Shown here: positions 1,195 to 35,816 of the stretch, one piece after another
Layout: each line of letters begins with the position of its first letter
How positions within the stretch are numbered: the stretch's first letter is position 1
DNA from: Candidatus Woesebacteria bacterium RIFCSPLOWO2_01_FULL_44_24b
GTDB lineage: Bacteria; Patescibacteriota; Microgenomatia; UBA8517
Direction of reading: 5' to 3'
NCBI GenBank assembly: GCA_001793235.1
Contig: MGHM01000014.1
Location: 3,857-67,856 of the forward strand
Length of the DNA stretch: 64,000 nucleotides
The notes under the pieces: generated by a model
Database searches by the model: none
Seen by the model: the letters and a program-made list of their open reading frames with translations, nothing else
Told to the model about the DNA's origin: nothing
Made by a program: the position numbers and the translations under genes

Positions 1195-1657
1195 AGGATA
1201 TTTTTTGATTGAAGCCTTACTCTCCATTGTTATATTTGCGGTGCTTATACTTTCGGTTTTTTCAATGATAAGCTTCTTGCAAAGGCGTACCATGCGATCC
1301 AGTTTTGAGGCGGAGGCCACGATATTGGTGCAGGATGCAATGGAAATAACCCACACTGTAATTCTTTCTGATTGGGCCGGGTACCCGGACGGCACTTATT
1401 ATCCGGTTTTTAATGCTGATTCTAATTCCTGGATTCTGTTCCCCGGGGAGGAGACAGAGCTTGAAGCCCGCTACAGCCGGAAAGTGGTTTTGCAAAGAGT
1501 GTGCAGGGACTCGCGCGGCGAGCGGATGGATACTTCTCCTTGTCTAGGAGCGCTTGACAACATGAGCCGTGAGGCAGAAGTAACTGTTTCCTGGATGGAG
1601 AGAGACGTAAGCCATGAAATAAGCGCCGAGCTTTTAATACTTAATACAAATGAATAA
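1187..1657 (+). CDS. pseudopilin / minor pilin (prepilin-type N-terminal domain)
   Basis: N-terminus MSKG|YFLIEALLSIVIFAVLIL has G at -1 and E at +5. It overlaps the upstream pilin gene by 8 nt, consistent with an operon. Confidence 0.7.
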   Translation: MSKGYFLIEALLSIVIFAVLILSVFSMISFLQRRTMRSSFEAEATILVQDAMEITHTVILSDWAGYPDGTYYPVFNADSNSWILFPGEETELEARYSRKVVLQRVCRDSRGERMDTSPCLGALDNMSREAEVTVSWMERDVSHEISAELLILNTNE

Positions 1658-6576: not shown

Positions 6577-7434
6577 ATGAAGGGCATAATTCTTTCGGGT
6601 GGGAATGGAACGAGACTTTATCCGTTAACCAAAGCTATCAGTAAGCAGTTGATGCCTATTTTTGACAAGCCGATGATTTATTATCCCCTTTCAACTCTTC
6701 TTCAGGCCGGCATCTGTGAAATACTAATTATTTCGACTCCAAAGGACCTTCCAAAATTTGTGGAACTGCTTGGCGACGGCTCGCAAATAGGCTGCGAGTT
6801 CAGTTACAAAATTCAGGAGTCTCCCCGGGGACTTGCGGACGCCTTCATAGTTGGAGAAGAATTTATCGGCAAAGACAAAGTCGCCATGATTTTGGGAGAT
6901 AATATATTTTACGGTGCTCAGATCGATAAACAGACTAGGAAATTTCTCGACGTAGATGGAGCGGTTGGTTTTGCTGCACATGTTCATGACCCCGAGCGTT
7001 ACGGCGTTTACGAGTTTGATGAAGACATGAATGTGCTTTCAATTGAAGAAAAGCCGGCTCGTCCAAAATCTAATTATGCCAATGCCGGGCTTTATTTTTG
7101 CGATAATGAGGTTACCCAAATCGCAAAAAAAGTTAAGCCTTCGGCCCGGGGTGAGCTTGAAATTACGTCGGTTTTGGAAGCTTATCGAAAGCGGGGAAAG
7201 CTGAAGGTTTGTTTGCTAGACAGGGGTTCTGCGTGGCTTGATACCGGAACTTTTGATTCCATGATGAAAGCCTCCCAGTTCGTTCAGGTTGTTGAAGAAA
7301 GACAAGGCCTTAAAGTAGGCTGTATTGAAGAGATTGCCTACCGTAAAGGGTATATCACGAAAAAGCAGCTTCAAAAATTGGCAGAGGGACTCCTGAAAAG
7401 CGGATATGGAAAATATTTAATGGAGATTACATGA
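6577..7434 (+). CDS. rmlA: glucose-1-phosphate thymidylyltransferase
   Basis: N-terminus [18 protein letters not shown]...[19 protein letters not shown] is the canonical RmlA/RfbA G-x-G-T-R-L nucleotidyltransferase signature. It is followed by rmlB, rmlC and rmlD. Confidence 0.9.
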
Positions 7435-8441
7435 GCAATGTTCTGGTTACAGGCGGCTGCGGCTTTATTGGTAGTAATTTTATTCGCTCTTGGCTCAAGA
7501 GTTACCCTAAGGACAAAATAATCAATTTGGACAAGCTCACTTACGCGGGGCACATTTCGTCGCTTCGCGATGTTGAAAAAGACAAAAATTACAAATTCGT
7601 AAAAGGGGATATTTGTGATTCAAAATTAGTGGCGAAAGTGGTGAATGAAGTCGAAACCGTTGTGCATTTTGCAGCAGAGAGCCACGTTGACCGCTCAGTT
7701 GTGGGCCCTGCAGTTTTTGTAAAGACAAATGTTTTGGGAACGCAGGTGCTACTGGATGCAGCTGTAAAGTATAAAGTTAAGCATTTTCATCACATTTCTA
7801 CAGATGAAGTGTTCGGGGCACTTCCTCTAAGCTCCGGTGAAAAATTCCGTGAAAATACTAATTATGACCCCAGAAGTCCGTATTCGGCTTCAAAAGCCGC
7901 TTCAGATCACTTAGTGCGGGCCTACTTTCATACTTTTAATTTGCCAACAACCATTACAAATTGCGCCAATAATTATGGTCCTTATCATGATCCGGAGAAA
8001 CTTTTTCCTCGGATGATTACGGATCTTATCGACGGGAGCCCAGTAAAAATATATGGAGATGGAAAGTATGTTCGCGATTGGCTCCATGTAGAGGACCACA
8101 TTAGAGCCATTGATTTGGTTATTAAAAAGGGAAAGATTGGGGAAACTTATCTGGTCGGGAGCACAATAAAGGAAATTAACAATCTAGCGGTTGCCAGAAA
8201 GCTGATAAAGCTATTTGGGAAAAGTGAGAAAGAATATATAAAGTTTGTCAAAGACCGCCCCGGGCATGACAGAAGATATGCAATTGACTGGAGCAAACTC
8301 GCGCGCCTGGGTTGGAAGCCGAAGTATGACCTTGATACCGGGCTCAATGAGACAGTAGAATGGTACAGGCAAAACGAATGGTGGTGGAGGCTGCTAAAAG
8401 CGCGAGCTGAGAAGCTATATGAAAAAACCGGGCAAAAATAA
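7431..8441 (+). CDS. rmlB: dTDP-glucose 4,6-dehydratase
   Basis: [17 protein letters not shown] Rossmann motif, the [10 protein letters not shown] catalytic YxxxK and the conserved NNYGPY motif. ATGA overlap with rmlA. Confidence 0.9.
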
Positions 8442-9006
8442 CTTTTTAGATATAAAATTGGAAAGTCATCCCAAGAATGTTACCGTTGATTGGCTTCAAG
8501 AACTTGAGAAGTCAGGTAAATTTGCTGTGCAGGGTATTTATAAGTCCCCGACAATAGAAGGCGTGATACTAAAAGAGTTGAATGTACTAGTAGACGGAAG
8601 AGGAGACGTTATCGAATTGTGGAGCAGGCCTTGGGTTGAAAAAGAAGGTTTTGTGGTGCCCGAACATTGTTATCAAAGCGCGACCGACTTCGGTGTTACA
8701 AAATGCTGGCATCTGCATGCAATTCACACCGATCAATTCACTGTTACGAGAGGTAAACTGCAGGTACTACTTGTTGACATAAGAGAAAAGTCTCCGACCT
8801 TTGGCCACGTAAACTCTGTATTCTTGGGGACACAAAAGCCCAGGCTTCTAAAAATTCCACCCGGTATTATGCATGGATGGAAAGCATTAACCCGACCCGA
8901 AGTCATCGTGGTAAATTTTCAATCTCATGTTTATTTGGCGGAAGATGAATTTAAGTATCCCTGGAATTGTGTTTTAGAACATGCCTGGGAGCCTAATAAT
9001 GGCTAA
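8419..9006 (+). CDS. rmlC: dTDP-4-dehydrorhamnose 3,5-epimerase
   Basis: Cupin-type RmlC core: LVDGRGDVIELWS (compare FGDERGFFMETF) and a downstream histidine-containing strand. The N-terminus is uncertain; the true start may be the in-frame GTG near 8527 rather than 8419, which would give a 45 aa extension and a 23 nt overlap with rmlB. Confidence 0.7.
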   Translation: MKKPGKNNFLDIKLESHPKNVTVDWLQELEKSGKFAVQGIYKSPTIEGVILKELNVLVDGRGDVIELWSRPWVEKEGFVVPEHCYQSATDFGVTKCWHLHAIHTDQFTVTRGKLQVLLVDIREKSPTFGHVNSVFLGTQKPRLLKIPPGIMHGWKALTRPEVIVVNFQSHVYLAEDEFKYPWNCVLEHAWEPNNG

Positions 9007-9892
9007 AATTATAACCTTTGGTGCAAAAGGAATGGTTGGTTCACGAGTTCTAGAGCTTCTTGGTAAGGACTTTGAGTTCGTGGCTCCCGACGAGAGAGAA
9101 GTGGATATAACCAAAGGCGAGAAGCTCAAAGCATATTTGGGTAAAGAAAAACCTCAAGTTATTATTAATTTCGCTGCGATTACGGATGTCAACACCTGTG
9201 AAACGGAGCGTGAAAATAAAGAAGGCATTGTTTGGAAAGTCAACGCTCTTGCCCCCGGGTATCTTTCAGAACTTTCTCACAAAAATAATTTTTTTATGGT
9301 TCAGATTTCTACTGACATGGTATTTCCGGGCTCAGAAGAAGACTCCGGGCCATATGACGAGTCGCACAAAACCGGGAACGACCAAAATTTAGCCTGGTAT
9401 GGGGCCAGTAAAGCCGAGGGCGAAGCCGCATCCCTTGGCGAAGAAGGCAATGCCGTCGTTCGAATAATTTACCCGGCTCGAGCGCACTTCCCCCAAAAGT
9501 TGGACTATGCAAGGAAGATTTTGGCGCTTCATGACGAGGGCAAGCTTTACCCTATGCTTATTAATCAACAAATGAATATCACTTACATCGATGAGCTGGC
9601 AGAAGCTTTGAAAGTTATAGCTTCAAGGCGGCTCAGTGGAATATACCATGTTGCCTCGGCTGATTTAACTACTCCGTATGAATTTGCATCTTATTTAATA
9701 GAAAAAGCGCGTGGGGTAAAGAATGTGGTACAAAAAAACACTTTTGACGAGTTTATTAAAGGCCGAGATAGACGGCGCTACCCTCAATTTGGCGGGTTAA
9801 AGGTTGAAAAAACTCAATTAACTCTGGGTGTACAGTTTTCTTCCTGGAGGGAAATAGTTGATAGCCTCATTTCCAGCTTGCAATTTGAGTAA
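8981..9892 (+). CDS. rmlD: dTDP-4-dehydrorhamnose reductase
   Basis: MAKIITFGAKGMVGSRV Rossmann N-terminus, YGASKAEGE (YxxxK) and ~300 aa length. It lies immediately after rmlC. The probable start is the ATG at 8999. Confidence 0.8.
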   Translation: MPGSLIMAKIITFGAKGMVGSRVLELLGKDFEFVAPDEREVDITKGEKLKAYLGKEKPQVIINFAAITDVNTCETERENKEGIVWKVNALAPGYLSELSHKNNFFMVQISTDMVFPGSEEDSGPYDESHKTGNDQNLAWYGASKAEGEAASLGEEGNAVVRIIYPARAHFPQKLDYARKILALHDEGKLYPMLINQQMNITYIDELAEALKVIASRRLSGIYHVASADLTTPYEFASYLIEKARGVKNVVQKNTFDEFIKGRDRRRYPQFGGLKVEKTQLTLGVQFSSWREIVDSLISSLQFE

Positions 9893-9931
9893 TCCTCTAA
9901 TATAATACTATATCCCAGTTTACCTGCTCAT

Positions 9932-11401
9932 TTGTTGCGTGGGGAAAACAATATTATGGGCATATTCAAAAAGTACACCAAGAAGATAACAATACTGGTT
10001 TTGCTGATTGCAATTATTTTAGCCTCACTAGCGGTGAAAGTTGTAAATCTAAATTACAATTCACCTTTTAATGATGAGGCTATTTATGTAGTAGTTGGCA
10101 AATTGGGTGTATTTGAGAAAGACTGGGAAACATTGGTTCCCTTTGAATGGATGGCAGGGGTGCCTTATTTTTATCCAAGTATTTCAGCTTTTGCATATGA
10201 GCTTGGTGGCATAGAAGCATCAAGATTTTTAAATGTAGTGTTTTTTGCGCTCACTGCGTTTCTGGTTTATAAAATTGCTTATTTACTGAGTGAAGGAAAA
10301 GACAAAGTAAAAGAGAAGGCCGGCTGTTTAGCTGCGGCAATTTTTGCCGGCTCTTCGGTAGGCTATTACGTTTCTCGGCTTGCTACTTATGATATGCCAA
10401 GCTTTTTCTTCTTTGCGTTGAGTTTATATTTTTTTATATTAGCTGAGCAAGCACGCAGGCTCCCGGGCAGGAAATATATTCTTTCTGCAATATTTTTAGT
10501 AGTGGCTTTCTTTTTTAAATATATAATCGCACTATATGTACCTATTTTATTGGCTTTTTCCTTTTTCGTCCAGAAAACAAGTTATCGTAAACGGGCAACT
10601 TTAGTGTATTTTGCACTGCCTTTGGTTATGGCGTTTTTTGTTTTTGGTATTACCCAGTTTAAAAGCCTTGGTATATACATTAGTGTACAAACTGAACTCG
10701 AGATAAAATCTCCTCTTGTAGACATGTTAGTTTTTGTAGTTAACCAGATTGGTTTAATATTGCCGTTTTGGGTCGTCGGTAGTTATTGGTTCTATAAAAA
10801 AGAAAAACTTAGAGTCTGGGCATTCTTTACTTTCTTTTCATTTATTATTATTTTGTTCCATGTTCTTAATCAGCGGCTACATACTCTCGATAAACACATA
10901 TTGTTAGCAATTGGAGGATTAGCCGTTTCAGCAGGTATTGGTGTAAGCAATATGATAAAGCACAAGGTTCACGATCGTATTTTATTATTGGGGATTGGTG
11001 TTTTTTGGGTATTATCATTTGTTGTCTCCCTGAAATACAATAGCGCCTGGGTTAATGCGTATTCGGTTATGGATTTCGTTGGGAAAAACAGTCACTCTGA
11101 AGATGTAGTCCTAAGTGAAATTGGCGCGATAACACAGCTGGACCTTTATGAAAAAGTTAATCCACTGAGGGTGTTTACGTTTGATTGGATTTATTACGAT
11201 GAGCACGAAGGCGAGGAAGCGCTTGTGAATGGCGTAAGCGATGGCTATTTCAACACTATTATCCTTGAAACACAAGAGGATGGTAAATCAGATTTTAATT
11301 CTGCTTATCATGAGCTCATAGTTGAAAATCGGGAGTTCAACAGAATTTATTCAAACATATATAGTGACGATCATTTTGAGGTGTATCGGAGGAACTATTA
11401 A
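9932..11401 (+). CDS. polytopic membrane protein, GT-C-type glycosyltransferase-like (PMT/ArnT-like DE loop motif)
   Basis: At least 10 predicted TM helices. The first extracytoplasmic loop carries FNDEAIYV (an Asp-Glu pair as in GT39/GT83 loop 1). There is a large C-terminal soluble region. It is a distant relative of the 47130-56694 paralog family. Confidence 0.5.
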   Translation: MLRGENNIMGIFKKYTKKITILVLLIAIILASLAVKVVNLNYNSPFNDEAIYVVVGKLGVFEKDWETLVPFEWMAGVPYFYPSISAFAYELGGIEASRFLNVVFFALTAFLVYKIAYLLSEGKDKVKEKAGCLAAAIFAGSSVGYYVSRLATYDMPSFFFFALSLYFFILAEQARRLPGRKYILSAIFLVVAFFFKYIIALYVPILLAFSFFVQKTSYRKRATLVYFALPLVMAFFVFGITQFKSLGIYISVQTELEIKSPLVDMLVFVVNQIGLILPFWVVGSYWFYKKEKLRVWAFFTFFSFIIILFHVLNQRLHTLDKHILLAIGGLAVSAGIGVSNMIKHKVHDRILLLGIGVFWVLSFVVSLKYNSAWVNAYSVMDFVGKNSHSEDVVLSEIGAITQLDLYEKVNPLRVFTFDWIYYDEHEGEEALVNGVSDGYFNTIILETQEDGKSDFNSAYHELIVENREFNRIYSNIYSDDHFEVYRRNY

Positions 11402-11402
11402 C

Positions 11403-12245
11403 ATGGCAAGGAAAAAACTAAACAGAGCATACACGAATTTATTGTGGCTGGTGATACCGATGGCTGTCTTTGCGCTGTTTGCAAAATATTTAGTGACCGA
11501 GTCCCCCATAGAAAAATATGAAGATGATACGCTCAGTTTGAAATCCGGCGAACCATCGAAGCCTGTCATCTCTGAGTACAATTGGCATGGCGAAGCTCTC
11601 GTAACTTTTTGGTTTGACGATGGGTGGAGGTCTCAATATTCAGAGGGATTTAGAATCTTAGATAATTATGGTTATAAAGCAGCATTGGCGGTACCAATTG
11701 AACCTATTGGGTATGAGGCTTACATGAACTGGCATCAGATACGAAAGCTGCATTATCTAGGGTGGGAAATAGCTTCGCACAGTAGGTCTCATGATTGTGA
11801 CCTGGTTTATAAAGGGGAGCCTGCATTTGAATATGAAATCTTTGGAGGAAAACAGGATTTGGAGAACTATGGTATTTTGACCGACATTTATGTGGCTCCC
11901 TGTGGAGAGAATACGCCGGAGGCAACTGAATATGTAAAAAGACACTTTTTGTCTCAGAGGATAGTAGAGCCGGGGCTAAACCCTCTGCCAGTTACGGATA
12001 ATTACGGTCTTATGGTTAAACAAGTCAGCAGAGATATTGATATTGAAGAAATAAAAGGTTGGATTAATGAGGCGATAAGTAAAAAACAATGGATAATTTT
12101 GATGTTACATCAAATCGACGACGAAGATACCGAATACGGTACGACCCCGGATAATTTGGAGCAAGTTGTTGATTTTGTCAATCACTCTAATATATCAGTT
12201 GTACTACCTTCCCAGGCACTTGGAGTAGAAAGGCGAAATGAATAA
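11403..12245 (+). CDS. polysaccharide deacetylase (CE4 / NodB-homology domain), membrane-anchored
   Basis: N-terminal TM helix. TFWFDDGW (the TFDDG motif 1 of CE4), a metal-binding His-containing SHSRSHD, and the AALAVPI and YVAPCGE segments. The start is taken at the ATG right after the upstream stop. Confidence 0.7.
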   Translation: MARKKLNRAYTNLLWLVIPMAVFALFAKYLVTESPIEKYEDDTLSLKSGEPSKPVISEYNWHGEALVTFWFDDGWRSQYSEGFRILDNYGYKAALAVPIEPIGYEAYMNWHQIRKLHYLGWEIASHSRSHDCDLVYKGEPAFEYEIFGGKQDLENYGILTDIYVAPCGENTPEATEYVKRHFLSQRIVEPGLNPLPVTDNYGLMVKQVSRDIDIEEIKGWINEAISKKQWIILMLHQIDDEDTEYGTTPDNLEQVVDFVNHSNISVVLPSQALGVERRNE

Positions 12246-13314
12246 AGTAGCAATAATAATGCCGGCACACAATGAAGAGAAAGTGATAAAAATGACCATT
12301 CAATCGGCCATCTCTGCTGTGGGCAAATTGAATGTGTATTTGGTGGACGATGGGTCGAGCGATAAGACAAGTCAGGTTGCACAGAAATTCCTCAAGAATG
12401 TCCTGGTAAAGAAACAAAATGGCGGGAAAGCAAATGCTATAAATTCTGGAATATCTAAGTTTGAGCTGACAAAAAGATATGAATTTATAATGCCGATAGA
12501 TGCAGACACCATATTGGCGGATGACTTTTTCAAGAATATTTTTAATGTTTTTGCTAAGGACAAGAAGAAGAAAATTGCTGCTGTTGTAGGGAAAGTAACG
12601 GGAAGAAATAAGAAATGGATTACTACTTACAGGTTGTGGGAGTATGAGATAAACCAGTCCGTACACAAGGCCGCTCAATCCATGTTGGGGGCTATAACCG
12701 TCTGCCCCGGCCCTTCTACAGTGTATAGATCAAAAGTATTTAAAAGAATTAAGTATTCTGAGGATACCCAAACCGAGGATATGGACTTTACATTCAGAAT
12801 TCACAGGCTTAATCTTGGCCGAATAGTATATGAGCCATCAGCTGTTGTTTCAACTCAAGACCCGGCCACCATCACTGCTTATATCAAGCAGGTCAAGAGG
12901 TGGTACATAGGTTTTTGGCAATGTATTCTTAAACATAAAGTACCCTGGGGCGGGCAAAAATTGGATGCTGAGGCTGGGCTTCTGGCGACCGACGCGCTAC
13001 TGAATGTTCTTTTGGCTGCCTTGTTCGTCGTTTTGGTTCCTGCATCACTTTTTGTAGATCCGATAGTATTGATATCTCCCGCTCTTGCCGACCTTTTTAT
13101 TTTTATGCTGCCTTCAATACTGTACGTTAGCATTAGACGCAAAATTTACGGCCTCATTTTGTTTTTGCCGCTTTTCTATTTTTTGAGGGTTATCGGTAGT
13201 TTTACATTCTTTTACAGTTTCTTAAAAGTTACTCTTGGCCTTAGGGCTAAGATGTCGAACGTTTGGAATACACAAAGGTATAGAGTAATGAAGGAGGAAA
13301 TATGGGTCAGCTAG
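12238..13314 (+). CDS. processive family-2 glycosyltransferase (NodC/IcaA/chitin-synthase-like) with C-terminal TM helices
   Basis: MPAHNEEKVI...VYLVDDGSSDKT (DXD region), QTEDMDFTFRIH, and KQVKRWYIGFWQ (the QxxRW processivity motif). Four C-terminal TM helices. 8 nt overlap with the upstream CE4 gene. Confidence 0.7.
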   Translation: MNKVAIIMPAHNEEKVIKMTIQSAISAVGKLNVYLVDDGSSDKTSQVAQKFLKNVLVKKQNGGKANAINSGISKFELTKRYEFIMPIDADTILADDFFKNIFNVFAKDKKKKIAAVVGKVTGRNKKWITTYRLWEYEINQSVHKAAQSMLGAITVCPGPSTVYRSKVFKRIKYSEDTQTEDMDFTFRIHRLNLGRIVYEPSAVVSTQDPATITAYIKQVKRWYIGFWQCILKHKVPWGGQKLDAEAGLLATDALLNVLLAALFVVLVPASLFVDPIVLISPALADLFIFMLPSILYVSIRRKIYGLILFLPLFYFLRVIGSFTFFYSFLKVTLGLRAKMSNVWNTQRYRVMKEEIWVS

Positions 13315-13393
13315 GAAGCATATCTTTAGTATTTCACTTATTTGTACTTATAGTCGGTAAAGTGTATATTTACCTGAGGTCAAAACTCAGGAG

Positions 13394-14470
13394 ATGAAGT
13401 ACGCATTACCATCATTCTTTCTTTTAACATCATTTTTTACGGTTGTTTTTGTGCTGGTTGCAAATAGTATTAACTTATCACCTTCAAGGGCAGTGGATAA
13501 TATCAAGAAGAGCCTCGCTTACAGTACATCGGATATTGAGTCGGAATACTCCGCTTGGGTGCCTTGGTGGGATGAGCCGGCCTCTATCAATTCTTTGAAG
13601 AACTCAAATAATCAAGTTAAAACGATACTGCCTGTTTGGTATCAGATAAACGAGGCTGGAAAGCTTATTGAGACAGATAGTAAGCTCAAAGAAGAAGTGT
13701 TAAAGGTTGCAAAAGAGCTTAACATTAGTGTTGTCCCTACCATTAGTAATGCCAGTGGTTACGATTTTGACGGTGAAAGAATTTCCAAGTTGCTTGGAAG
13801 CGAAGAACTGCGCGAAGGGTTGGTTGCAAACTTATTGGAACTGGCTCAAAAAAATGCCTTTCGTGGGTGGGATCTTGATTGGGAGCAGGTGAAAAAGGAG
13901 GACAGAGAAGCTTATTCTTCTTTTGTTGATTTATTGGGCAAAAGACTCAATAGTAAAAATTTGAAACTGTCGGTAACTGTGCATGCGCAGGCTGGTAAGG
14001 TTTCGGATTGGGATGGTACAAGCGGCCAAGACCTTAAGGCAATAGGTAATAGTGCGAATTATGTTCGGGTAATGGCCTATGATTTTCATCATTCGAAATC
14101 TTCTCCCGGCTCGGTAACACCGATGGATAGACTTTCCGAAACGCTGGAATACTCGGCAAAAGTAATCCCCTTGGATAAATTGGTATTGGGGCTCCCTTCA
14201 TATGGTTACGATTGGATTGGAGATGAGGGGACAGCAATGCAGTATGAAAAAATAGTTGATTATCTCGGTAAAAATGGAATTCAAAGCCAAAGAGATTCAG
14301 AAACTTATTCATTGTATGCCAATTTTGATTTGGAGGGAGCGGAGCATGCTTTGTGGTATGAGGACGCTGAGAGTTTTCATGAAAAGGTCAAACTTGCCAA
14401 GTCATACGGAGTTTACCAAGTGACGTTATGGCACCTTGGTGGTGAGGATCCTCGCATTTGGGCTTACTGA
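13394..14470 (+). CDS. glycoside hydrolase family 18 (chitinase-like) with N-terminal signal/anchor
   Basis: FRGWDLDWEQ matches the GH18 catalytic DxxDxDxE motif. The N-terminal hydrophobic segment and the ~340 aa TIM-barrel-sized body fit the family. A RBS-like AGGAG lies 5 nt upstream. Confidence 0.65.
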   Translation: MKYALPSFFLLTSFFTVVFVLVANSINLSPSRAVDNIKKSLAYSTSDIESEYSAWVPWWDEPASINSLKNSNNQVKTILPVWYQINEAGKLIETDSKLKEEVLKVAKELNISVVPTISNASGYDFDGERISKLLGSEELREGLVANLLELAQKNAFRGWDLDWEQVKKEDREAYSSFVDLLGKRLNSKNLKLSVTVHAQAGKVSDWDGTSGQDLKAIGNSANYVRVMAYDFHHSKSSPGSVTPMDRLSETLEYSAKVIPLDKLVLGLPSYGYDWIGDEGTAMQYEKIVDYLGKNGIQSQRDSETYSLYANFDLEGAEHALWYEDAESFHEKVKLAKSYGVYQVTLWHLGGEDPRIWAY

Positions 14471-15165: not shown

Positions 15166-15747
15166 ATGGAATTGACGATTGATGTAAAAGAAATTATGGC
15201 TCGGGTGCGCGAGGTGCTAACTGCCCCCAAAAAGTTTTTTGGCAAGGCAAAAAAAGAACATGGCTGGAAAAAGGCTTTTTCGTTCGTGCTGGTGGTAGCC
15301 GGAGCTGGCCACATTTTGACAGCCCTCTACAATATCCTCATCTACCCCTTAGTATCGCCTACATTCGCAGAATTATTTGGAATACCCGCTGTTCAGTTAA
15401 ATGCCGGACAAGTAGCGGGCGCCACGCTTGTGAGCTTCATCGTGACACTTGGCATGAGTTTTATCTGGGGAGCAGCTCTGAAAGTCTGGCTGGCCATTTT
15501 TAAGGTCAAATCAAATTTCGACTCAAGCTATCGGGTGATGGCATATTCGAGGACTCCGAATTATTTATTTAGCTGGCTTCCGCTTGTCAATATCCTAATA
15601 GCAATATATAGTTTTTATCTTTTGGTGCTGGGACTCGAAAATGAATATGGTATACCCAGAGGAAAAGCTATTCTTATAATTGTTACCTCAGTTGTCGTAA
15701 TTTTTGTAGTCTCAATTCTCGCGGTCTCCTTAATTCCCACAATATAG
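15166..15747 (+). CDS. Yip1-family-like integral membrane protein
   Basis: 193 aa with 5 predicted TM helices and an N-terminal soluble segment. The topology and size resemble the Yip1 domain. Weak assignment. Confidence 0.4.
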   Translation: MELTIDVKEIMARVREVLTAPKKFFGKAKKEHGWKKAFSFVLVVAGAGHILTALYNILIYPLVSPTFAELFGIPAVQLNAGQVAGATLVSFIVTLGMSFIWGAALKVWLAIFKVKSNFDSSYRVMAYSRTPNYLFSWLPLVNILIAIYSFYLLVLGLENEYGIPRGKAILIIVTSVVVIFVVSILAVSLIPTI

Positions 15748-15749
15748 CC

Positions 15750-16925
15750 ATGGATAAAGTAGTAATAGTCATGCCTACATATAAGGAAAAAGATAACATC
15801 GAGCGGATGATTACTGAACTTTTTGAGAAGGAATTCCCAAAAATAAGAAACGTAAGCATGCACCTTTTGGTTGTCAATGATTTGCCCTCGGATGGCGGTC
15901 CTGATGACGGCACGGGGGATATTGTAAAAAAATATGCTAAGAAATTCGACAACCTTCACATTATTGAGGATAAAAAACAAGGTCTTGGTTGGGCTTATGT
16001 TCGCGGCATGAAGTACGCCATGGAGAGGCTCCATGCCGACGCAGTAATGGAGATGGATGCTGACTTTCAGCACCCGCCGCGCTTTGTGGCACCAATGGTC
16101 GCGGCGTATTTGGATGGCGCGGACTATGCAATAGGCTCGCGCTACATTAAAGGCGGCTCCGTTCCCAAAGAGTGGGCGATGCACCGCAAAGCCGTTAGTT
16201 TTTTTGGCAACCTTTTTATTAGAATTGCCTTGGTTAAGCCAAAAATTCATGACTTAACCACCGGTTTCAGACTCACAAGAGTAAAAGGAGTATTAGATAA
16301 AATTAAGCTCAATGAGTTGATGGAGCTTAGCCGTTTTGCCTATAAAGTTGATTTGCTTTATCAAAGCATTAAAAATTCCAAAAAAGTGGTCGAAGTTCCT
16401 CTGGAGTTTGCCCCAAGAACTGAGGAAGTTTCCAAATTTTCAATGCAGGAAATGGTTTCAACTTTCAAAGTTGCGATTATTTTGGGGATTAAGGACAAAC
16501 AAAGATTTATCAAGTACGGCGCTGTCGGCCTTATCGGCTACGCTATCAACGCAGTTGGGCTTGAGGTTTTTTATCGCCTTGGCTTTTCCACCGGCGTTGC
16601 CGCGGCAATTGGAGCCGAGTTTGCAATAGTTTCAAACTTTATTTTGAATAATTTCTGGACTTTTAAAGAGGAAAAAATTACCAGTCTTGCAAAAGTTGTG
16701 AGCAAATTTGTTCAGTTTAATTTGAGCTCGGTGGGCGCAGTGGTTATACAAGCTATAGTGGTGGCGGTGGGAACCGGTATTTTTGGAGTGGGCACCCGCC
16801 AGATAATGCTGATTATCGCTGTGGGCTTTTTCGTAATTCCATACAATTACGCAATGTACAATCTTTTTATATGGAAGACTTGGAAGGTACCCGCACTTGA
16901 GAAAATTCAAAAGTTACTGGGATAG
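15750..16925 (+). CDS. GT2 polyprenyl-phosphate sugar synthase (DPM1/GtrB-like) fused to C-terminal GtrA-like membrane domain
   Basis: N-terminal VVIVMPTYKEKDNIERMI...LLVVNDLPSDG...MEMDADFQHPP (DXD and the DPM1-type DAD...QHP motif). The C-terminal 120 aa carry 4 TM helices with the GtrA-family signature FIKYGAVGLIGYAINAVGLEVF...NNFWTFK. Confidence 0.75.
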   Translation: MDKVVIVMPTYKEKDNIERMITELFEKEFPKIRNVSMHLLVVNDLPSDGGPDDGTGDIVKKYAKKFDNLHIIEDKKQGLGWAYVRGMKYAMERLHADAVMEMDADFQHPPRFVAPMVAAYLDGADYAIGSRYIKGGSVPKEWAMHRKAVSFFGNLFIRIALVKPKIHDLTTGFRLTRVKGVLDKIKLNELMELSRFAYKVDLLYQSIKNSKKVVEVPLEFAPRTEEVSKFSMQEMVSTFKVAIILGIKDKQRFIKYGAVGLIGYAINAVGLEVFYRLGFSTGVAAAIGAEFAIVSNFILNNFWTFKEEKITSLAKVVSKFVQFNLSSVGAVVIQAIVVAVGTGIFGVGTRQIMLIIAVGFFVIPYNYAMYNLFIWKTWKVPALEKIQKLLG

Positions 16926-19274: not shown

Positions 19275-19976
19275 ATGGTGCTCACGAGTTTATCCGTATT
19301 TTTTCCAGCTTACAACGAGGAAGGCCGTATTGCAATGACCGTGGAGCATGCACTCAAAACTATCCCGAGAATTGCCAAAAAATGGGAAGTACTTTTAATT
19401 GATGATGGTTCATCCGACAGTACGGGCAAAATAATTGACAAACTTGCAAAAAACAAGAACGTACGGGCCATTCATCACATGATCAATAGAGGATATGGGG
19501 GTGCCTTTAAAAGCGGACTCTACGGCGCAAAGTATAGCTGGATAGCTTTTACAGATTCTGATGGGCAATTTGATTTTTCTGAAATTAAGAATTTCATAAA
19601 AAAACAAAAGGAGTCCAACGCCGACATAGTAATTGGGTACTACAAAAAACGTCAGGTCGGTAAAGTCAAAATAATCACCTCCAAAATGTGGGAATACCTG
19701 GTTTTTATACTGTTTGGCCTTAAAGTTCGGGATATTGATTGTGGTTTTAAGTTGATTTCTAAAAAAGTTGTTGACGGGATTCCTGACCTGGAAAGTGAGC
19801 GGGGGGCTTTTATTTCAAGCGAGTTTCTGATAAAGGCAAAAAAGAAAGGTTTTAAAATTGTAGAGATCCCGGTTACTCATTACCCGAGAGAAGTCGGAGT
19901 TGGAACCGGGCGCAACCTCAAGGTAATTGTTGGCAGTTTTAAAGATTTATTCAGACTTTGGGTAAAGTTACAGTAG
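19275..19976 (+). CDS. GT2 polyprenyl-phosphate hexose synthase (DPM1/GtrB/ArnC-like)
   Basis: VFFPAYNEEGRIAMTV...WEVLLIDDGSSDSTGKII...IHHMINRGYGGAFKSG...AFTDSDGQFD (DXD). About 230 aa with no TM domain. Confidence 0.8.
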   Translation: MVLTSLSVFFPAYNEEGRIAMTVEHALKTIPRIAKKWEVLLIDDGSSDSTGKIIDKLAKNKNVRAIHHMINRGYGGAFKSGLYGAKYSWIAFTDSDGQFDFSEIKNFIKKQKESNADIVIGYYKKRQVGKVKIITSKMWEYLVFILFGLKVRDIDCGFKLISKKVVDGIPDLESERGAFISSEFLIKAKKKGFKIVEIPVTHYPREVGVGTGRNLKVIVGSFKDLFRLWVKLQ

Positions 19977-19977
19977 C

Positions 19978-21519
19978 ATGCAGAATGTAGTAAGTAGACT
20001 GGGTGAATGGATTAAGAAAAACAAAGTTGAGTTTATAATTCTTACCGTAATTCTCATTTTGGGAGCGTTTTTGCGTCTCTTTAAGATTGACGAATATATG
20101 ACCTTTTTAGGTGATGAAGGCCGGGATGTAATAATCGTTCGGCGCTTCTTGGTTTATGGTGACATATTCTTAATTGGCCCTGGGACTTCAATTGGGAATA
20201 TGTATCTGGGGCCATTGTATTACTATTTGATGGCTCCGGTCTTGTGGCTCGGAAATTTCTCGCCCGTTGCGCCGGCGGCTATGATTGCGCTCCTGGGGGT
20301 GACGACTGTTGCCTTTGTTTGGTATATAGCCCGGGAGTGGTTTGGAAAAAATGCTGCCTTCATCGCTGCTTTACTTTATGCTATTGCCCCAACAGTAATT
20401 ATTTACTCCCGCTCTTCCTGGAACCCAAACATCATGCCGTTTTTCTCGTTGTTGTGCATTTTTGCCATCTGGCGGGTTGTTACAACTAAAAAACTTTTTT
20501 GGCTACCAATTCTTGGCATCTCTTATGCTTTCGTTTTACAGTCCCACTACCTGGGGTTGCTTTTAGCTCCAACTCTCGCCGTTTTTTGGCTGTATGCTTT
20601 CTGGCTATTTAGGAAAGATAAGAAATTAAGAAGCTATATACTATATACAATATTCGCTATACTACTTTTTGCAGGTTTAATGTCCCCGCTTGTGATCTTC
20701 GACTCTCGCCACGACTGGCGCAATTTTGATGCCATTAAGAAGTTTTTTACCGAGCGCCAGGCCACCGTTTCCGCACGACCATGGAACGCTTTTCCGAGCC
20801 TCTGGCCGCTAACGCAGGAAATTTCCGCGCGCCTCCTTGCAGGCAGAAATGAAATTTTAGGTTCGTGGGCGGCTCTTGCGGTTTTGGGTGGGGTCACACT
20901 TGTCATGAAAGAGGCAAGGAAGCTTAACAAGACCACTTTTCTTGCGTTTACACTTCTCATTCTGTGGCTTGCAACCGCTCTGGTCGGTTTAGGACTTTAT
21001 AAACAGGAAATTTATGATCATTATTACGGGTTTTTCTTTGCAGCCCCGTTTATTCTTTTGGGGGGTTTGGCGGGGCATTTGATAAATAAAGCCAAGATTC
21101 GCGGTTGGTGGATAGTGGGTTTTTTCCTAGTGTTTCTCGTTTATTTCAACTTTTTAGATAATCCGCTGAACTACCCACCCAACAGACAACTGGCGCGGAC
21201 CATGGAAGTCGCTCGAAAAATTGAAGTTGAGTCCGCGGGAAATAAATTTAATTTAGCCGTGATTGCTGAGCGAAATTATGAAGATGCTTATCAGTATTTC
21301 CTTGAGGCTTGGGGTACGGGAGTTACCGACATCGACCCGTTGAAATATCAAGAAACTATTACCAAGCAACTTTTCGTAGTTTGCGAGTTGTCCGAGGAGA
21401 AATGCGACCCGACACATAACTCAAAGACAGAAGTTGCGAATTTTGGCTGGAGTGAAATTGCAGAAAAATGGGAGATATCTGGGGTAATATTGTATAAGCT
21501 GGTGCATGTCGAAATCTAA
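19978..21519 (+). CDS. GT-C-type membrane glycosyltransferase-like protein (subfamily 2, GDEGRD motif)
   Basis: At least 11 TM helices. The loop-1 motif FLGDEGRDVIIVRRFLVYGDIFLIGPGTSIGNMYLGPLYYYLMAP is shared with the ORFs at 25483, 42494 and 45721. The C-terminal soluble domain is about 130 aa. It directly follows a DPM1-like GT2 gene. Confidence 0.6.
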   Translation: MQNVVSRLGEWIKKNKVEFIILTVILILGAFLRLFKIDEYMTFLGDEGRDVIIVRRFLVYGDIFLIGPGTSIGNMYLGPLYYYLMAPVLWLGNFSPVAPAAMIALLGVTTVAFVWYIAREWFGKNAAFIAALLYAIAPTVIIYSRSSWNPNIMPFFSLLCIFAIWRVVTTKKLFWLPILGISYAFVLQSHYLGLLLAPTLAVFWLYAFWLFRKDKKLRSYILYTIFAILLFAGLMSPLVIFDSRHDWRNFDAIKKFFTERQATVSARPWNAFPSLWPLTQEISARLLAGRNEILGSWAALAVLGGVTLVMKEARKLNKTTFLAFTLLILWLATALVGLGLYKQEIYDHYYGFFFAAPFILLGGLAGHLINKAKIRGWWIVGFFLVFLVYFNFLDNPLNYPPNRQLARTMEVARKIEVESAGNKFNLAVIAERNYEDAYQYFLEAWGTGVTDIDPLKYQETITKQLFVVCELSEEKCDPTHNSKTEVANFGWSEIAEKWEISGVILYKLVHVEI

Positions 21520-35779: not shown

Positions 35780-35816
35780 ACGATATTATATCACCAAGCT
35801 TTCATGCTACAATTTG

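What the first reader, a model, noticed from the sequence alone, without database searches (positions are those of the whole stretch)
11403..14470. NodB-like deacetylase + NodC/IcaA-like processive GT2 + GH18 module: a chito-oligosaccharide or PNAG-type polymer system
Three tightly linked genes encode three activities. A membrane-anchored CE4 deacetylase has the TFDDG-type motif. A processive GT2 has the QxxRW motif and C-terminal TM helices, as in the NodC, IcaA or chitin synthase class. A secreted GH18 has the DxxDxDxE motif. Together they encode synthesis, de-N-acetylation and hydrolysis or remodelling of a beta-linked GlcNAc polymer. The order (CE4, GT2, GH18) mirrors nodBC/icaAB logic but adds a dedicated GH18. 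The product could be a chitosan-like exopolymer, a cell-wall glycan, or signalling chito-oligosaccharides.
Basis: partly seen in the sequence, partly recalled or inferred. Interest (0 to 1): 0.6.

Follow-up and report, generated by a model that had tools for sequence, protein, structure and literature searches.

The report
Split GlcNAc-polymer synthase operon in Patescibacteria

Summary
Genes 11403-12245, 12238-13314 and 13394-14470 encode a membrane-anchored CE4 deacetylase, a PgaC/NodC/HAS-like GT2 and an anchored GH18, and all catalytic motifs are conserved.

The unit is larger than reported:
- An ArnT-fold GT-C glycosyltransferase (9956-11401) lies directly upstream.
- A 31-aa single-pass microprotein (13302-13397) fills the supposed GT2-GH18 gap.

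All five genes abut or overlap. The four large genes co-occur in 24 of 30 Patescibacteria loci. The microprotein follows GT2 in 28 of 29 loci and is fused to GH18 in the other.

In Bacillus mycoides and Prevotella nigrescens, GH18, CE4 and GT2 form one ~1,120-aa polypeptide, so the trio is a true functional module.

The GT2 has NodC's helix inventory minus the N-terminal helix. The microprotein has the orientation of that missing helix.

Best reading (about 0.55): a synthase-dependent beta-GlcNAc glycan, chitin/chitosan- or PNAG-like, is processed outside the membrane, and the GT-C decorates or anchors it.

The sugar, the linkage and the GT-C role are inferred, not shown. It fails the equivalog thresholds for PgaC, NodC and PgaB.

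Verdict: new variant of a known kind, moderate interest.

The parts
9878..9906 (+). Promoter-like site (TTGCAA-17-TATAAT) in the 40-60 nt gap between the rmlD-like gene and the GT-C gene. It is a possible operon promoter.
   Evidence: 10 of 12 matches. This is weak evidence: the total number of such sites in the region is no higher than in shuffled sequence. Only its position is suggestive.
9956..11401 (+). GT-C fold glycosyltransferase (PMT_2 / GT39-like, 481 aa; an alternative TTG start lies at 9932). It has about 10-12 TM helices, the conserved NDEA motif (residues 39-42) in the first outside loop, ATYD (143-146), and a conserved C-terminal alpha/beta domain of about 100 aa predicted to lie outside the membrane.
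   Evidence: Pfam PMT_2, E 2.9e-10. The orthologue group shares contigs with the GT2. It lies directly upstream of CE4 in 26 of 30 loci. The AF2 model has pLDDT 92.3. The best PDB fold match is ArnT 5ezm, TMq 0.67. hhalign against E. coli ArnT is not significant.
11403..12245 (+). CE4 (NodB-fold) de-N-acetylase, 280 aa. It has an N-terminal signal-anchor TM (residues 11-27) oriented N-in, so the catalytic domain is outside. The catalytic and metal motifs FWFDDGW, HSRSH, Arg and (M/F)LH are conserved.
   Evidence: best NCBIfam hit HfsH, 56 bits, nearly full length; flank charges +4 / -3. No PDB sequence hit at E 0.01.
12238..13314 (+). Membrane GT2 of the PgaC/IcaA/NodC/HAS/chitin-synthase class, 358 aa, with no N-terminal TM. 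It has a GT-A domain with D38, D88xD90, T179-E-D and Q218xxRW. These are followed by helices 241-273, 275-301 (carrying an invariant Asp285 inside the membrane) and 304-332 (FYxxR, probably an interface helix). It ends in a conserved C-terminal W343-x3-R347 tail.
13302..13397 (+). 31-aa microprotein MGQLGSISLVFHLFVLIVGKVYIYLRSKLRR. It is a single-pass TM, N-out/C-in, with the conserved core S-L-x-x-H-L and a Lys/Arg-rich cytoplasmic tail. It has a strong Shine-Dalgarno sequence (AAGGAGGAAAT-ATG), overlaps the GT2 stop by 13 nt and overlaps the GH18 start (ATGA). It is the proposed synthase subunit.
   Evidence: Called as a gene in ENA/Logan contigs. Sequence. Found in 28 of 29 loci immediately at the GT2 stop (offsets -29 to +73 nt) and fused to GH18 in L006. 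The motif regex hits 29 of 3,668 ORFs, 26-27 of them at this position. No Pfam family.
13394..14470 (+). GH18 glycoside hydrolase, 358 aa, with an N-terminal signal-anchor (residues 7-23) and the catalytic domain outside. It keeps the catalytic D160-x-D162-x-E164, plus MxYD, YGYxW and WxxGGxD. It belongs to the YdhD/YaaH/SleL-like subgroup but lacks LysM domains.
   Evidence: (5jh8 E 6e-39; YdhD 3cz8 E 7e-33; YaaH 4s3k; SleL 4s3j).

Best explanation
This is a five-gene operon (GT-C, CE4, GT2, 31-aa microprotein, GH18) of a Woesebacteria (Patescibacteria/CPR) genome. It builds and tailors a beta-linked N-acetylglucosamine glycan at the cell surface.

Proposed mechanism:
1. The cytoplasm-facing GT2 polymerises GlcNAc from UDP-GlcNAc. 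It keeps every catalytic motif of the PgaC/NodC/HAS/chitin-synthase class.
2. The GT2 works as a complex with the microprotein. The microprotein's out-to-in helix stands in for the N-terminal TM helix that NodC, the Deinococcus relatives and the fused Bacillus/Prevotella enzymes carry in cis.
3. The product reaches the outer face of the membrane.
4. There the anchored CE4 partially de-N-acetylates it to a cationic chitosan- or dPNAG-like glycan.
5. The anchored GH18 cleaves or trims it. This matches the hydrolase that accompanies nearly all synthase-dependent polysaccharide systems.
6. The ArnT-fold GT-C, also acting on the outer face with a polyprenyl-phosphate-sugar donor, decorates the glycan or attaches it to the envelope.

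Shown here: domain identities, motif conservation, predicted topology, conserved synteny, and fusion of the trio in other phyla.

Inferred: GlcNAc as the sugar, the processivity and length of the product, the linkage (the GH18 partner favours beta-1,4; the nearest characterised synthases make beta-1,6), the export route, the microprotein-GT2 contact, and the GT-C role.
For: Gene packing: GT-C stop to CE4 start is 1 nt. CE4/GT2 overlap by 8 nt, GT2/microprotein by 13 nt, and microprotein/GH18 by 4 nt.

Synteny: GT-C-CE4-GT2-GH18 occurs in 24 of 30 Patescibacteria loci spanning Woese-, Gottesman-, Shapiro- and Daviesbacteria, WWE3 and Saccharimonadales. No other gene family is conserved around them.

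Rosetta-stone fusions:
- GH18-CE4-TM-GT2 is a single 1,117-aa protein in Bacillus mycoides and a 1,135-aa protein in Prevotella nigrescens.
- Their parts are homologous to the window proteins: GH18 E 7e-31 over its full length, GT2 37% identity at E 2e-38.
- The microprotein is fused to GH18 in a Saccharimonadales locus.

GT2 class:
- NCBIfam ranks PgaC_IcaA at 112.7 bits and NodC at 83.1, above all others.
- hhalign against E. coli PgaC gives probability 99.2%, E 8e-20, and spans TED and QxxRW.
- Against ArnC, only the nucleotide-binding half aligns.
- The best fold matches are Chlorella virus hyaluronan synthase (TMq 0.70-0.75), then chitin synthases and BcsA.

Topology:
- The CE4 and GH18 anchors place their domains outside, and the microprotein is N-out/C-in.
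- NodC has TM1 out-to-in, two further TM helices and three interface helices (PMC4132801).
- The B. mycoides fusion has a TM at 718-736 followed by KQKRKTRSR, directly before its GT2 domain.

Precedent: Streptomyces MatB, an extracellular CE4 joined by one TM helix to an intracellular GT2, produces exported PNAG together with MatA (PMC5972031). CE4-GT fusions in pga-like operons lacking pgaA and pgaD are documented (PMC7112194).

Catalytic residues of all three enzymes are conserved across orthologues.
Against: - No biochemical evidence exists for any member of this family.
- The GT2 is far below the equivalog cut-offs: PgaC 112.7 against 422, NodC 83 against 550. Donor specificity is therefore unproven.
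- With about two TM helices plus one from the microprotein, a monomer seems too small to form the channel seen in BcsA or HAS.
- The nearest characterised GH18 relatives (SleL, YaaH, YdhD) cut peptidoglycan, not chitin or PNAG.
- No known synthase-dependent system includes a GT-C, so its role is unexplained by precedent. The fused Bacillus and Prevotella genes have no GT-C neighbour.
- Some Daviesbacteria loci keep only GT2 plus the microprotein.
- The CE4 is only weakly similar to the CE4 domain of the fused enzymes (E 0.05).
Confidence: 0.55

Rival explanations
1. Lipid-carrier pathway with Arn/Lgm/GacIJL logic. The GT2, stimulated by the microprotein as GacJ stimulates GacI, puts one GlcNAc or a short oligomer on polyprenyl phosphate. 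After flipping, the CE4 de-acetylates it. The ArnT-fold GT-C then transfers GlcN(Ac) to an envelope acceptor such as a lipid, teichoic-acid-like polymer, rhamnan or protein. GH18 would recycle or trim the product.
For: - The GT-C is the most tightly conserved partner (26 of 30 loci) and its best fold match is ArnT.
- A GT2, a CE4-type deacylase and a GT-C are exactly the enzyme classes of ArnC/ArnD/ArnT (E. coli locus layout). They are also the classes of Bordetella LgmABC (own knowledge).
- A small membrane activator of a GT2 has a precedent in GacJ (own knowledge).
- The TM inventory of the GT2 is too small for an obvious channel.
- A minimal cellulose-synthase-like GT2, PcManGT 6yv7, is among the fold hits at TMq 0.58.
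- rmlABCD lies just upstream in the window.
Against: - The GT2 carries the TED and QxxRW motifs and interface helices of processive synthases.
- hhalign against ArnC covers only the first 156 columns, against probability 99.2% through QxxRW for PgaC.
- The NCBIfam ArnC score is 20.7 against a cut-off of 529.
- Genuine polyprenyl-P-sugar synthase types are encoded separately nearby: a GT2-GtrA fusion at 15750-16925 and a GT2 + PMT_2 pair at 19275-21519.
- The CE4 is predicted to be extracytoplasmic. ArnD, by my own knowledge, acts on the cytoplasmic face.
- GH18-CE4-GT2 fusions exist without any GT-C neighbour.
- GH18 has no role in the known pathways of this type.
Confidence: 0.17
2. NodC-like oligosaccharide factory. 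The GT2-microprotein pair has a closed 'molecular ruler' pocket like NodC. It makes short chito-oligosaccharides that are exported, partly de-acetylated and size-trimmed, and that act as diffusible or surface signals towards the host cell of the episymbiont.
For: - The helix inventory equals that of NodC: three TM helices including the trans one, plus three interface helices.
- The second-best NCBIfam hit is NodC.
- In NodC a residue of TM1 helps close the product pocket (PMC4132801). The microprotein carries a conserved polar His inside its helix.
Against: - There is no NodA-type acyltransferase and no NodIJ-type exporter in the conserved neighbourhood.
- Unlike NodB, the CE4 is anchored outside.
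- MatB-type enzymes with a similarly small TM inventory make polymeric PNAG.
- The NodC equivalog score is not met (83 against 550).
Confidence: 0.12
3. Cell-wall remodelling. The CE4 is a PgdA/PdaA-type peptidoglycan deacetylase and the GH18 is a SleL/YaaH-type peptidoglycan N-acetylglucosaminidase. The GT2 and GT-C serve an unrelated envelope glycosylation function and are merely co-transcribed.
For: The best-characterised GH18 relatives are spore-cortex peptidoglycan hydrolases, and JGI names the relatives 'spore germination protein YaaH'. CE4 enzymes commonly act on peptidoglycan (own knowledge).
Against: - Covalent fusion of GH18 and CE4 to the GT2 in two other phyla and of the microprotein to GH18 argues for one pathway.
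- The GH18 has no LysM or other wall-binding domain.
- The best family hit for the CE4 is the holdfast deacetylase HfsH, not PgdA.
Confidence: 0.08

Closest known systems
E. coli pgaABCD / staphylococcal icaADBC (PNAG, poly-beta-1,6-GlcNAc)
   Same: - A GT2 synthase homologous to PgaC (hhalign probability 99.2%).
- A small membrane protein encoded right after the synthase, like pgaD or icaD.
- A CE4 de-N-acetylase acting outside the membrane.
- A glycoside hydrolase activity accompanying the deacetylase, as in PgaB.
- The gene order CE4 - GT2 - small TM protein mirrors pgaB-pgaC-pgaD.
   Different: - All equivalog scores fail.
- The GT2 lacks the roughly 70 N-terminal residues of PgaC that carry TM segments.
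- The microprotein has 31 aa and one TM helix, with no detectable homology to PgaD or IcaD.
- The hydrolase is a separate GH18, not the GH153 domain of PgaB.
- There is no PgaA porin and no IcaC.
- A GT-C glycosyltransferase is added.
Streptomyces MatAB (PNAG; PMC5972031) and the CE4-GT fusions of divergent pga-like operons (PMC7112194)
   Same: An extracellular CE4 works with an intracellular PgaC-like GT2 that has a very small TM inventory. There is no outer-membrane or PgaD component. The product is exported by a monoderm cell.
   Different: In MatB the CE4 and GT2 are one polypeptide joined by the TM helix. Here they are separate genes, and a helix of that orientation is a free microprotein. 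MatAB has no GH18 and no GT-C; it has an IcaC orthologue downstream instead.
Uncharacterised GH18-CE4-GT2 tri-domain 'glycosyltransferases' (e.g. WP_215582752.1 on Bacillus mycoides plasmid p322; WP_004367853.1 of Prevotella nigrescens)
   Same: They have the same three catalytic domains and the same predicted topology: GH18 and CE4 outside, an out-to-in TM helix with a basic flank, GT2 inside, two C-terminal TM helices, an interface-like helix and a W-x-K-x-x-R tail. GH18 and GT2 are clearly homologous to the window proteins.
   Different: They are one polypeptide, where the window has three genes plus a microprotein. Domain order along the sequence is GH18-CE4-GT2, whereas the window gene order is CE4-GT2-GH18. 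They have no GT-C neighbour. The CE4 domains are only marginally similar. I found no experimental work on them.
Rhizobial NodC / NodB (chito-oligosaccharide synthesis)
   Same: Both are beta-GlcNAc transferases of the same GT2 class with a CE4 partner. The TM and interface-helix inventory of NodC equals GT2 plus microprotein. CE4 precedes GT2 in the gene order.
   Different: The NodC equivalog score is not met. NodB is cytoplasmic, whereas the CE4 here is anchored outside. There is no NodA or NodIJ. TM1 is supplied in trans rather than in cis.
ArnC/ArnD/ArnT, Bordetella LgmABC, streptococcal GacI/GacJ/GacL (lipid-carrier amino-sugar transfer)
   Same: The combination of a GT2, a CE4-type deacylase and an ArnT-fold GT-C. 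A small membrane protein sits next to the GT2, as with GacJ. All act on the cell envelope.
   Different: The GT2 is synthase-type (QxxRW, TED, interface helices), not ArnC/GtrB-type. The GT-C shares only the fold with ArnT. GH18 has no counterpart in these pathways.

Membership tests
PNAG synthase systems (pgaABCD / icaADBC) | Synthase is a PgaC/IcaA equivalog (NCBIfam TIGR03937, cut-off 422.3 bits) | tested here: not met
   112.7 bits. It is homologous (hhalign probability 99.2%) but lies outside the equivalog family.
PNAG synthase systems (pgaABCD / icaADBC) | Catalytic core with D, DxD, TED and QxxRW | tested here: met
   D38, D88xD90, T179-E-D and Q218xxRW are invariant or nearly so in 26-29 orthologues.
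PNAG synthase systems (pgaABCD / icaADBC) | PgaD or IcaD accessory membrane protein | tested here: not met
   The 31-aa microprotein has no Pfam family. It is an analogue in position only.
PNAG synthase systems (pgaABCD / icaADBC) | PgaB/IcaB-type deacetylase (TIGR03938, cut-off 321.9) | tested here: not met
   16.8 bits. A CE4 domain with intact motifs is nevertheless present.
PNAG synthase systems (pgaABCD / icaADBC) | PgaA porin or IcaC membrane protein in the operon | tested here: not met
   Neither appears among the called genes and Pfam hits of the locus or among the conserved neighbours.
PNAG synthase systems (pgaABCD / icaADBC) | Product is beta-1,6-linked GlcNAc | not testable with these tools
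   This needs product chemistry. The GH18 partner argues, indirectly, for beta-1,4 instead.
Nod factor backbone synthesis (NodC/NodB/NodA) | NodC equivalog (TIGR04242, cut-off 550) | tested here: not met
   83.1 bits.
Nod factor backbone synthesis (NodC/NodB/NodA) | Three TM helices (out-in, in-out, out-in) plus three interface helices in one chain | tested here: inconclusive
   The GT2 alone lacks TM1. The microprotein has the TM1 orientation, but a physical complex could not be modelled.
Nod factor backbone synthesis (NodC/NodB/NodA) | Cytoplasmic NodB and the NodA acyltransferase | tested here: not met
   The CE4 has an N-in signal anchor, which places its domain outside. No NodA-like gene lies in the locus.
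Chitin synthases (GT2, Chitin_synth families) | Pfam Chitin_synth_2 above the gathering score, and the motifs QxxEY, EDR, QRRRW and SWGTR | tested here: inconclusive
   42.5 bits against 27, but only over residues 79-169. The motif variants are LWEYE, TEDM, QVKRW and VWNTQR. Chitin synthases rank below HAS among the fold matches.
Chitin synthases (GT2, Chitin_synth families) | Multi-helix C-terminal channel domain | tested here: not met
   Only three helices follow the QxxRW helix.
GH18 glycoside hydrolases (catalytically active) | DxDxE catalytic motif with the acid/base Glu, plus the MxYD Tyr/Asp | tested here: met
   D160-L-D162-W-E164 and M227-A-Y-D. E164 and D160 are invariant in 27 orthologues. 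The first Asp of the long DxxDxDxE form is Arg.
SleL/YaaH/YdhD spore-cortex GH18 subgroup | Closest sequence relatives, plus LysM wall-binding domains | tested here: inconclusive
   Sequence similarity is met (YdhD E 7e-33, YaaH E 4e-30, SleL E 1e-25). No LysM domain is detected. The organism is not a spore former.
CE4 carbohydrate esterases | NodB-homology domain with the Asp-His-His metal triad and the catalytic Asp and His | tested here: met
   Pfam 36.6 bits against 23.1. DD, HSxxH, Arg and LxH-type motifs are conserved.
GH18-CE4-GT2 tri-domain enzymes (uncharacterised) | All three domains homologous, with the same membrane topology | tested here: met
   GH18 E 7e-31 and GT2 E 2e-38; the CE4 is only E 0.05 but aligns on motifs 1 and 2. 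Topology.
GH18-CE4-GT2 tri-domain enzymes (uncharacterised) | Single polypeptide | tested here: not met
   The window has separate genes with their own starts and stops.
Arn / Lgm lipid-carrier amino-sugar pathways | ArnC/GtrB-type polyprenyl-phosphate sugar synthase | tested here: not met
   NF007986 scores 20.7 bits against 529. hhalign covers only the first 156 columns.
Arn / Lgm lipid-carrier amino-sugar pathways | ArnT-type GT-C transferase | tested here: inconclusive
   The fold is met (5ezm TMq 0.67). The sequence relationship is not significant (probability 5.5%). The acceptor is unknown.

The most novel reading that the evidence does not exclude
The system may be a hybrid that no described pathway covers.

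- It would be a 'split' minimal NodC/PgaC-type synthase whose missing first transmembrane helix is supplied in trans by a 31-aa microprotein. The conserved in-membrane His of the microprotein and the invariant Asp285 of the GT2 would form part of the product path.
- It would be physically coupled, through the microprotein and the anchors, to an exo-facing GH18 and CE4.
- It would also be coupled to an ArnT-fold GT-C that takes the nascent GlcN/GlcNAc chain, or a lipid-linked form of it, and ligates it to the envelope.

This would be a Patescibacteria-wide way of building a cationic chitosan-like surface layer, possibly used for attachment to host cells.
Probability: 0.15. Interest if true: 0.75.

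Novelty: new variant of a known kind. Interest (0 to 1): 0.45.

Why it matters
Patescibacteria (CPR) make up a large share of bacterial diversity. Most are thought to live attached to other cells, and almost nothing is known about what their surface is made of.

- This operon is a concrete, widely conserved candidate for a GlcNAc/GlcN-based surface polymer in that group. It can be tested with lectins, anti-PNAG antibodies, chitinase or dispersin B.
- The existence of the same three activities as one polypeptide in culturable Bacillus and Prevotella offers tractable models.
- The unannotated microprotein is a likely obligatory subunit of a very small processive synthase. It would be a useful minimal system for studying how such enzymes handle their product.
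- A GT-C enzyme wired into a synthase-type operon has no described precedent.

If the product turns out to be ordinary PNAG, the finding becomes one more lineage of a widespread biofilm system.

Tried and rejected
- Modelling the GT2-microprotein complex.
- Looking for natural GT2-microprotein fusions among the longer GT2 homologues. None was convincing.
- Pfam search on three microproteins. No family was found.
- Testing whether the conserved His of the microprotein co-varies with the invariant Asp285 of the GT2. The one locus with Ser instead of His (L025) still has the Asp, so there is no covariation signal.
- Connecting to MatAB through a Streptomyces hit (H18). It turned out to be a stand-alone GT2 next to a subtilase, not MatB. 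MatA could not be fetched, so I could not test whether it is a cryptic GH18-like protein.
- Archaeal (Thermoproteota) GT2 relatives also lack an N-terminal TM helix, but they have no hydrophobic mini-ORF downstream. The microprotein is therefore not a general feature of TM1-less relatives.
- Literature searches for the cassette in CPR and for GH18/CE4/GT2 fusions found nothing specific.
- Promoter and terminator scans gave counts no higher than in shuffled sequence.
- Chance co-location was rejected on the synteny and fusion evidence.

Full report
**1. What is at the coordinates**

- 11403-12245: Pfam Polysacc_deac_1 (CE4), E 5e-9.
- 12238-13314: Glyco_tranf_2_3 (E 1.5e-23), Glyco_trans_2_3 (E 2e-17) and Chitin_synth_2 (42.5 bits, above its cut-off).
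- 13394-14470: Glyco_hydro_18, E 1.7e-29.

- CE4: FWFDDGW, HSRSH and MLH.
- GT2: DAD, TED and QVKRW.
- GH18: WDLDWE.

In alignments of 27-29 orthologues taken from related loci, these positions are invariant or nearly so.

One detail is wrong. The GH18 motif reads R-G-W-D-L-D-W-E, so only the core DxDxE is kept. The catalytic Glu164 is invariant.

An exact match of the GH18 protein is deposited as a hypothetical protein of Candidatus Woesebacteria bacterium RIFCSPHIGHO2_01_FULL_44_21. The window is therefore from a Microgenomates/Patescibacteria (CPR) genome from groundwater, and the same contig appears in ENA and Logan.

**2. The unit is larger than reported**

Two further genes belong to it.

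*GT-C gene.* A 481-aa PMT_2/GT39-type GT-C membrane protein (9956-11401) ends 1 nt before the CE4 start.

*Microprotein gene.* The 79-nt 'gap' between GT2 and GH18 is a 31-codon gene (13302-13397) encoding MGQLGSISLVFHLFVLIVGKVYIYLRSKLRR.
- It has a near-perfect Shine-Dalgarno sequence.
- It overlaps the GT2 stop by 13 nt and the GH18 start by 4 nt.

Together, the five genes abut or overlap on one strand. A promoter-like site sits just upstream of the GT-C gene, but such sites are no more frequent here than in shuffled sequence.

**3. Conservation elsewhere**

*Source of the loci.* A scan of one genome per species with the GT2 alignment returned 48 loci. Together with loci fetched by exact protein look-up, 30 are Patescibacteria. 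They include Woese-, Gottesman-, Davies- and Shapirobacteria, WWE3, Saccharimonadales and 'Parcubacteria'. Several MAGs labelled Gammaproteobacteria or Bathyarchaeia carry the same cassette.

*The four large genes.* tblastn and phmmer with the window proteins show the order GT-C - CE4 - GT2 - GH18 in 24 of the 30 loci, at 30-50% identity.
- In nine loci GH18 lies convergently on the other strand, still immediately downstream.
- Two of the remaining loci are cut by contig ends.
- The real exceptions are mostly Daviesbacteria: L005 has GT2 and the microprotein only, L019 lacks GT-C and CE4, and L021 lacks GT-C. L010, a MAG deposited as Gammaproteobacteria, lacks GH18.
- Clustering all ORFs of these loci finds no other family shared by more than four loci. 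The conserved unit is exactly these genes.

*The microprotein.*
- A mini-ORF of 30-74 codons starts between -29 and +73 nt of the GT2 stop in 28 of the 29 loci with a complete GT2 3' end.
- Its alignment shows a short N-terminus, the core S-L-(I/V)-(F/I)-H-L-(L/V)-V, and a Lys/Arg-rich tail. The His is present in 27 of 28.
- A regular expression for the core matches 29 of 3,668 ORFs of at least 25 codons in these loci, and 26-27 of those matches are at this position. The pattern was derived from the same data, so this shows positional specificity only.
- In the 29th locus (L006, Saccharimonadales) the same peptide is fused in frame to the N-terminus of GH18, ahead of a KKRP loop and the hydrolase's own anchor helix.

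**4. The trio is one functional module**

The best matches of the GT2 among 72,556 plasmid records are the C-terminal thirds of single large proteins: 1,117 aa in Bacillus mycoides and 1,135 aa in Prevotella nigrescens. Their Pfam architecture is GH18 - CE4 - GT2.

Similarity of the window proteins to the B. mycoides protein:
- GH18 aligns over its full length (26% identity, E 7e-31).
- GT2 aligns at 37% identity (E 2e-38).
- CE4 aligns only marginally (E 0.05), though on motifs 1 and 2.

A covalent fusion in two other phyla, plus the microprotein-GH18 fusion in Saccharimonadales, is strong evidence that these activities serve one pathway. This argues against the idea that CE4 and GH18 are independent wall-remodelling enzymes.

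**5. What kind of GT2**

*Family profiles.* NCBIfam ranks PgaC_IcaA first (112.7 bits) and NodC second (83.1). All others, including cellulose synthase (48.3) and ArnC (20.7), score far lower. None reaches its equivalog cut-off.

*Profile against sequence.*
- Against E. coli PgaC: probability 99.2%, E 8e-20, over columns 4-236, through TED and QxxRW.
- Against E. coli ArnC: only the nucleotide-binding half aligns.

*Fold.* An AlphaFold model built from 26 homologues (pLDDT 87.5) matches Chlorella virus hyaluronan synthase best (TMq 0.70-0.75). Vertebrate HAS, chitin synthases, the minimal archaeal PcManGT and BcsA follow.

The enzyme therefore belongs to the membrane-integrated synthase class that includes all known GlcNAc polymerases. 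Within that class it is closest to the GlcNAc-using branch. This is similarity, not proof of donor specificity.

**6. Topology and the 'split helix' idea**

*Helices of the GT2.* The GT2 starts directly with its GT-A domain and has no N-terminal TM helix. After the QxxRW helix (212-232) come three long helices: 241-273, 275-301 and 304-332.

*Comparison with NodC.* Experimental mapping of NodC gives TM1 (out-to-in), the cytoplasmic domain, TM2, TM3, and a hydrophobic third helix that is really a cytoplasmic interface helix (PMC4132801). Three observations support the same arrangement here:
- a basic RRK loop lies between helices two and three;
- the third helix carries the conserved FYxxR;
- the tail is basic and carries the conserved W-x3-R.

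The CPR GT2 thus looks like NodC without TM1.

*Orientation of the microprotein.* It is N-out/C-in, judged by its flank charges (0 / +4) and by the L006 fusion. That is the orientation of NodC TM1. It is also the orientation of the helix that precedes the GT2 domain in the B. mycoides fusion (718-736, followed by KQKRKTRSR).

*Relatives.*
- The Deinococcus relatives (405-427 aa) carry an N-terminal TM helix in cis.
- The archaeal relatives have neither an N-terminal TM helix nor a mini-ORF.

*Inference.* I infer that the microprotein is a synthase subunit that supplies this helix in trans. It could equally be a PgaD/IcaD-like activator, and the data do not separate the two. An invariant Asp285 within the second GT2 helix and the conserved His of the microprotein are both predicted in the outer half of the membrane. 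A contact between them is speculation that I could not model.

**7. The exo-enzymes**

- CE4 has an N-in signal anchor (flank charges +4 / -3), so its domain is outside.
- GH18 has an N-terminal hydrophobic anchor or signal.
- The best family match for CE4 is the holdfast deacetylase HfsH (56 bits, nearly full length, far below its cut-off).
- The closest solved relatives of GH18 are an uncharacterised 'probable chitinase' (5jh8, E 6e-39) and the spore-cortex enzymes YdhD, YaaH and SleL. GH18 has no LysM domain.

All GH18 activities known to me cleave beta-1,4 bonds after GlcNAc by substrate-assisted catalysis. The known PNAG hydrolases belong to GH20 and GH153. On that basis the GH18 partner leans towards a beta-1,4 (chitin/chitosan-like) product. 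The nearest characterised synthases (PgaC, IcaA, MatB) make beta-1,6 PNAG. The linkage is open.

**8. The GT-C**

- Its orthologue group is sharply defined and found on the same contigs as the GT2.
- The model (pLDDT 92.3) matches ArnT best (TMq 0.67), then ALG12, AglB and AftA.
- hhalign against E. coli ArnT is not significant.
- The NDEA motif in the first outside loop is invariant, as expected for an active GT-C.
- No described synthase-dependent system has such a partner, and the fused Bacillus and Prevotella genes have none.

The window separately encodes true polyprenyl-phosphate-sugar synthase types: a GT2-GtrA fusion at 15750-16925 and a GT2 + PMT_2 pair at 19275-21519. These could feed it. 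My best guess is outside-face decoration or anchoring of the glycan, by analogy with IcaC, BcsG or GacL. This is the weakest link of the model.

The GT-C is also the main support for the rival lipid-carrier reading (Arn/Lgm/GacIJL logic). I keep that reading at about 0.17, because the GT2 is clearly synthase-type and GH18 has no place in it.

**9. Comparison and novelty**

The system works most like PNAG machineries:
- pgaB-pgaC-pgaD has the same order of CE4, GT2 and small TM protein.
- MatB joins an extracellular CE4 to a GT2 by one helix.
- CE4-GT fusions in pga-like operons lacking pgaA and pgaD have been catalogued.

It is not a member of the pga, ica or nod families by their own thresholds.

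The differences are a GH18 instead of GH153, a 31-aa one-helix partner, a GT2 without TM1, and a GT-C. I found no description of the cassette in CPR, nor of the GH18-CE4-GT2 fusion, in the searchable literature. That library is incomplete.

I class it as a new variant of a known kind and score its interest as moderate. It is ordinary in principle, being a synthase with tailoring enzymes. It is widely conserved in a poorly understood phylum, carries an overlooked microprotein and an unprecedented GT-C partner, and has culturable fused homologues that make it testable.

**10. Limits**

- Everything is computational.
- The genome scan used two peptide patterns and therefore favours close relatives.
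- The topology comes from hydropathy, charge and fusions, not from a dedicated predictor.
- The complex could not be modelled.

Noticed in passing
window 6577-9892: A complete rmlA-rmlB-rmlC-rmlD set for dTDP-rhamnose synthesis lies directly upstream of the cassette on the same strand. rmlA and rmlB are also upstream in the closest relative, L003, but this is not conserved in the more distant loci.
   Followed up: partly
window 15166-16925 and 19275-21519: A Yip1-domain membrane protein is followed by a GT2 fused to a GtrA/DPMS transmembrane domain, which is the polyprenyl-phosphate-sugar synthase type. Further on lies a soluble GT2 directly followed by a PMT_2 GT-C. These are classical donor-synthase/GT-C pairs next to the synthase-type GT2.
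   Followed up: partly
window 28299-38913 and 47130-56694: The window is a large envelope-glycosylation island, almost entirely on the + strand. It holds at least five more PMT/PMT_2 GT-C paralogues, a YfhO-like protein, two PTPS_related membrane proteins and a Wzx-like flippase (Polysacc_synt_3). Several 540-580-aa ORFs there were not examined.
   Followed up: partly
window 1650-4577: Upstream genes encode a PA14-domain protein, an unannotated 387-aa protein and a CAP-domain protein. These are probably secreted or surface proteins. The same trio is found upstream in L003.
   Followed up: no
L055 7457-7717 (Prevotella nigrescens NZ_CP082843.1): The fused GH18-CE4-GT2 gene is followed by an 86-aa MtN3_slv (SemiSWEET-type) sugar transporter gene. 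In B. mycoides, two small hypothetical genes follow the fused gene.
   Followed up: no
L009, L010, L012, L014, L015, L028, L030: MAG records deposited as 'uncultured Gammaproteobacteria', 'Pseudomonadales' or 'Candidatus Bathyarchaeia' carry the Patescibacteria-type cassette at 44-49% GT2 identity. The taxonomic labels are probably wrong, or the cassette has spread. This was not checked with marker genes.
   Followed up: no
L006 2365-3165 and 4802-5620: The Saccharimonadales locus has a second, more divergent CE4 paralogue upstream of the GT-C, in addition to the cassette CE4.
   Followed up: no
L017, L018, L020, L022, L023, L025, L026, L031, L032: In these loci (WWE3, Shapirobacteria and others) the GH18 is convergent to the GT2 and scores lower (117-169 bits against 207-302). 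Their microproteins have longer tails and a G-G-(V/I)-S-L core. This suggests two sub-types of the cassette.
   Followed up: partly
window 21550-23510: Two adjacent paralogous DHH/DHHA1 phosphoesterase genes follow the glycosylation genes.
   Followed up: no
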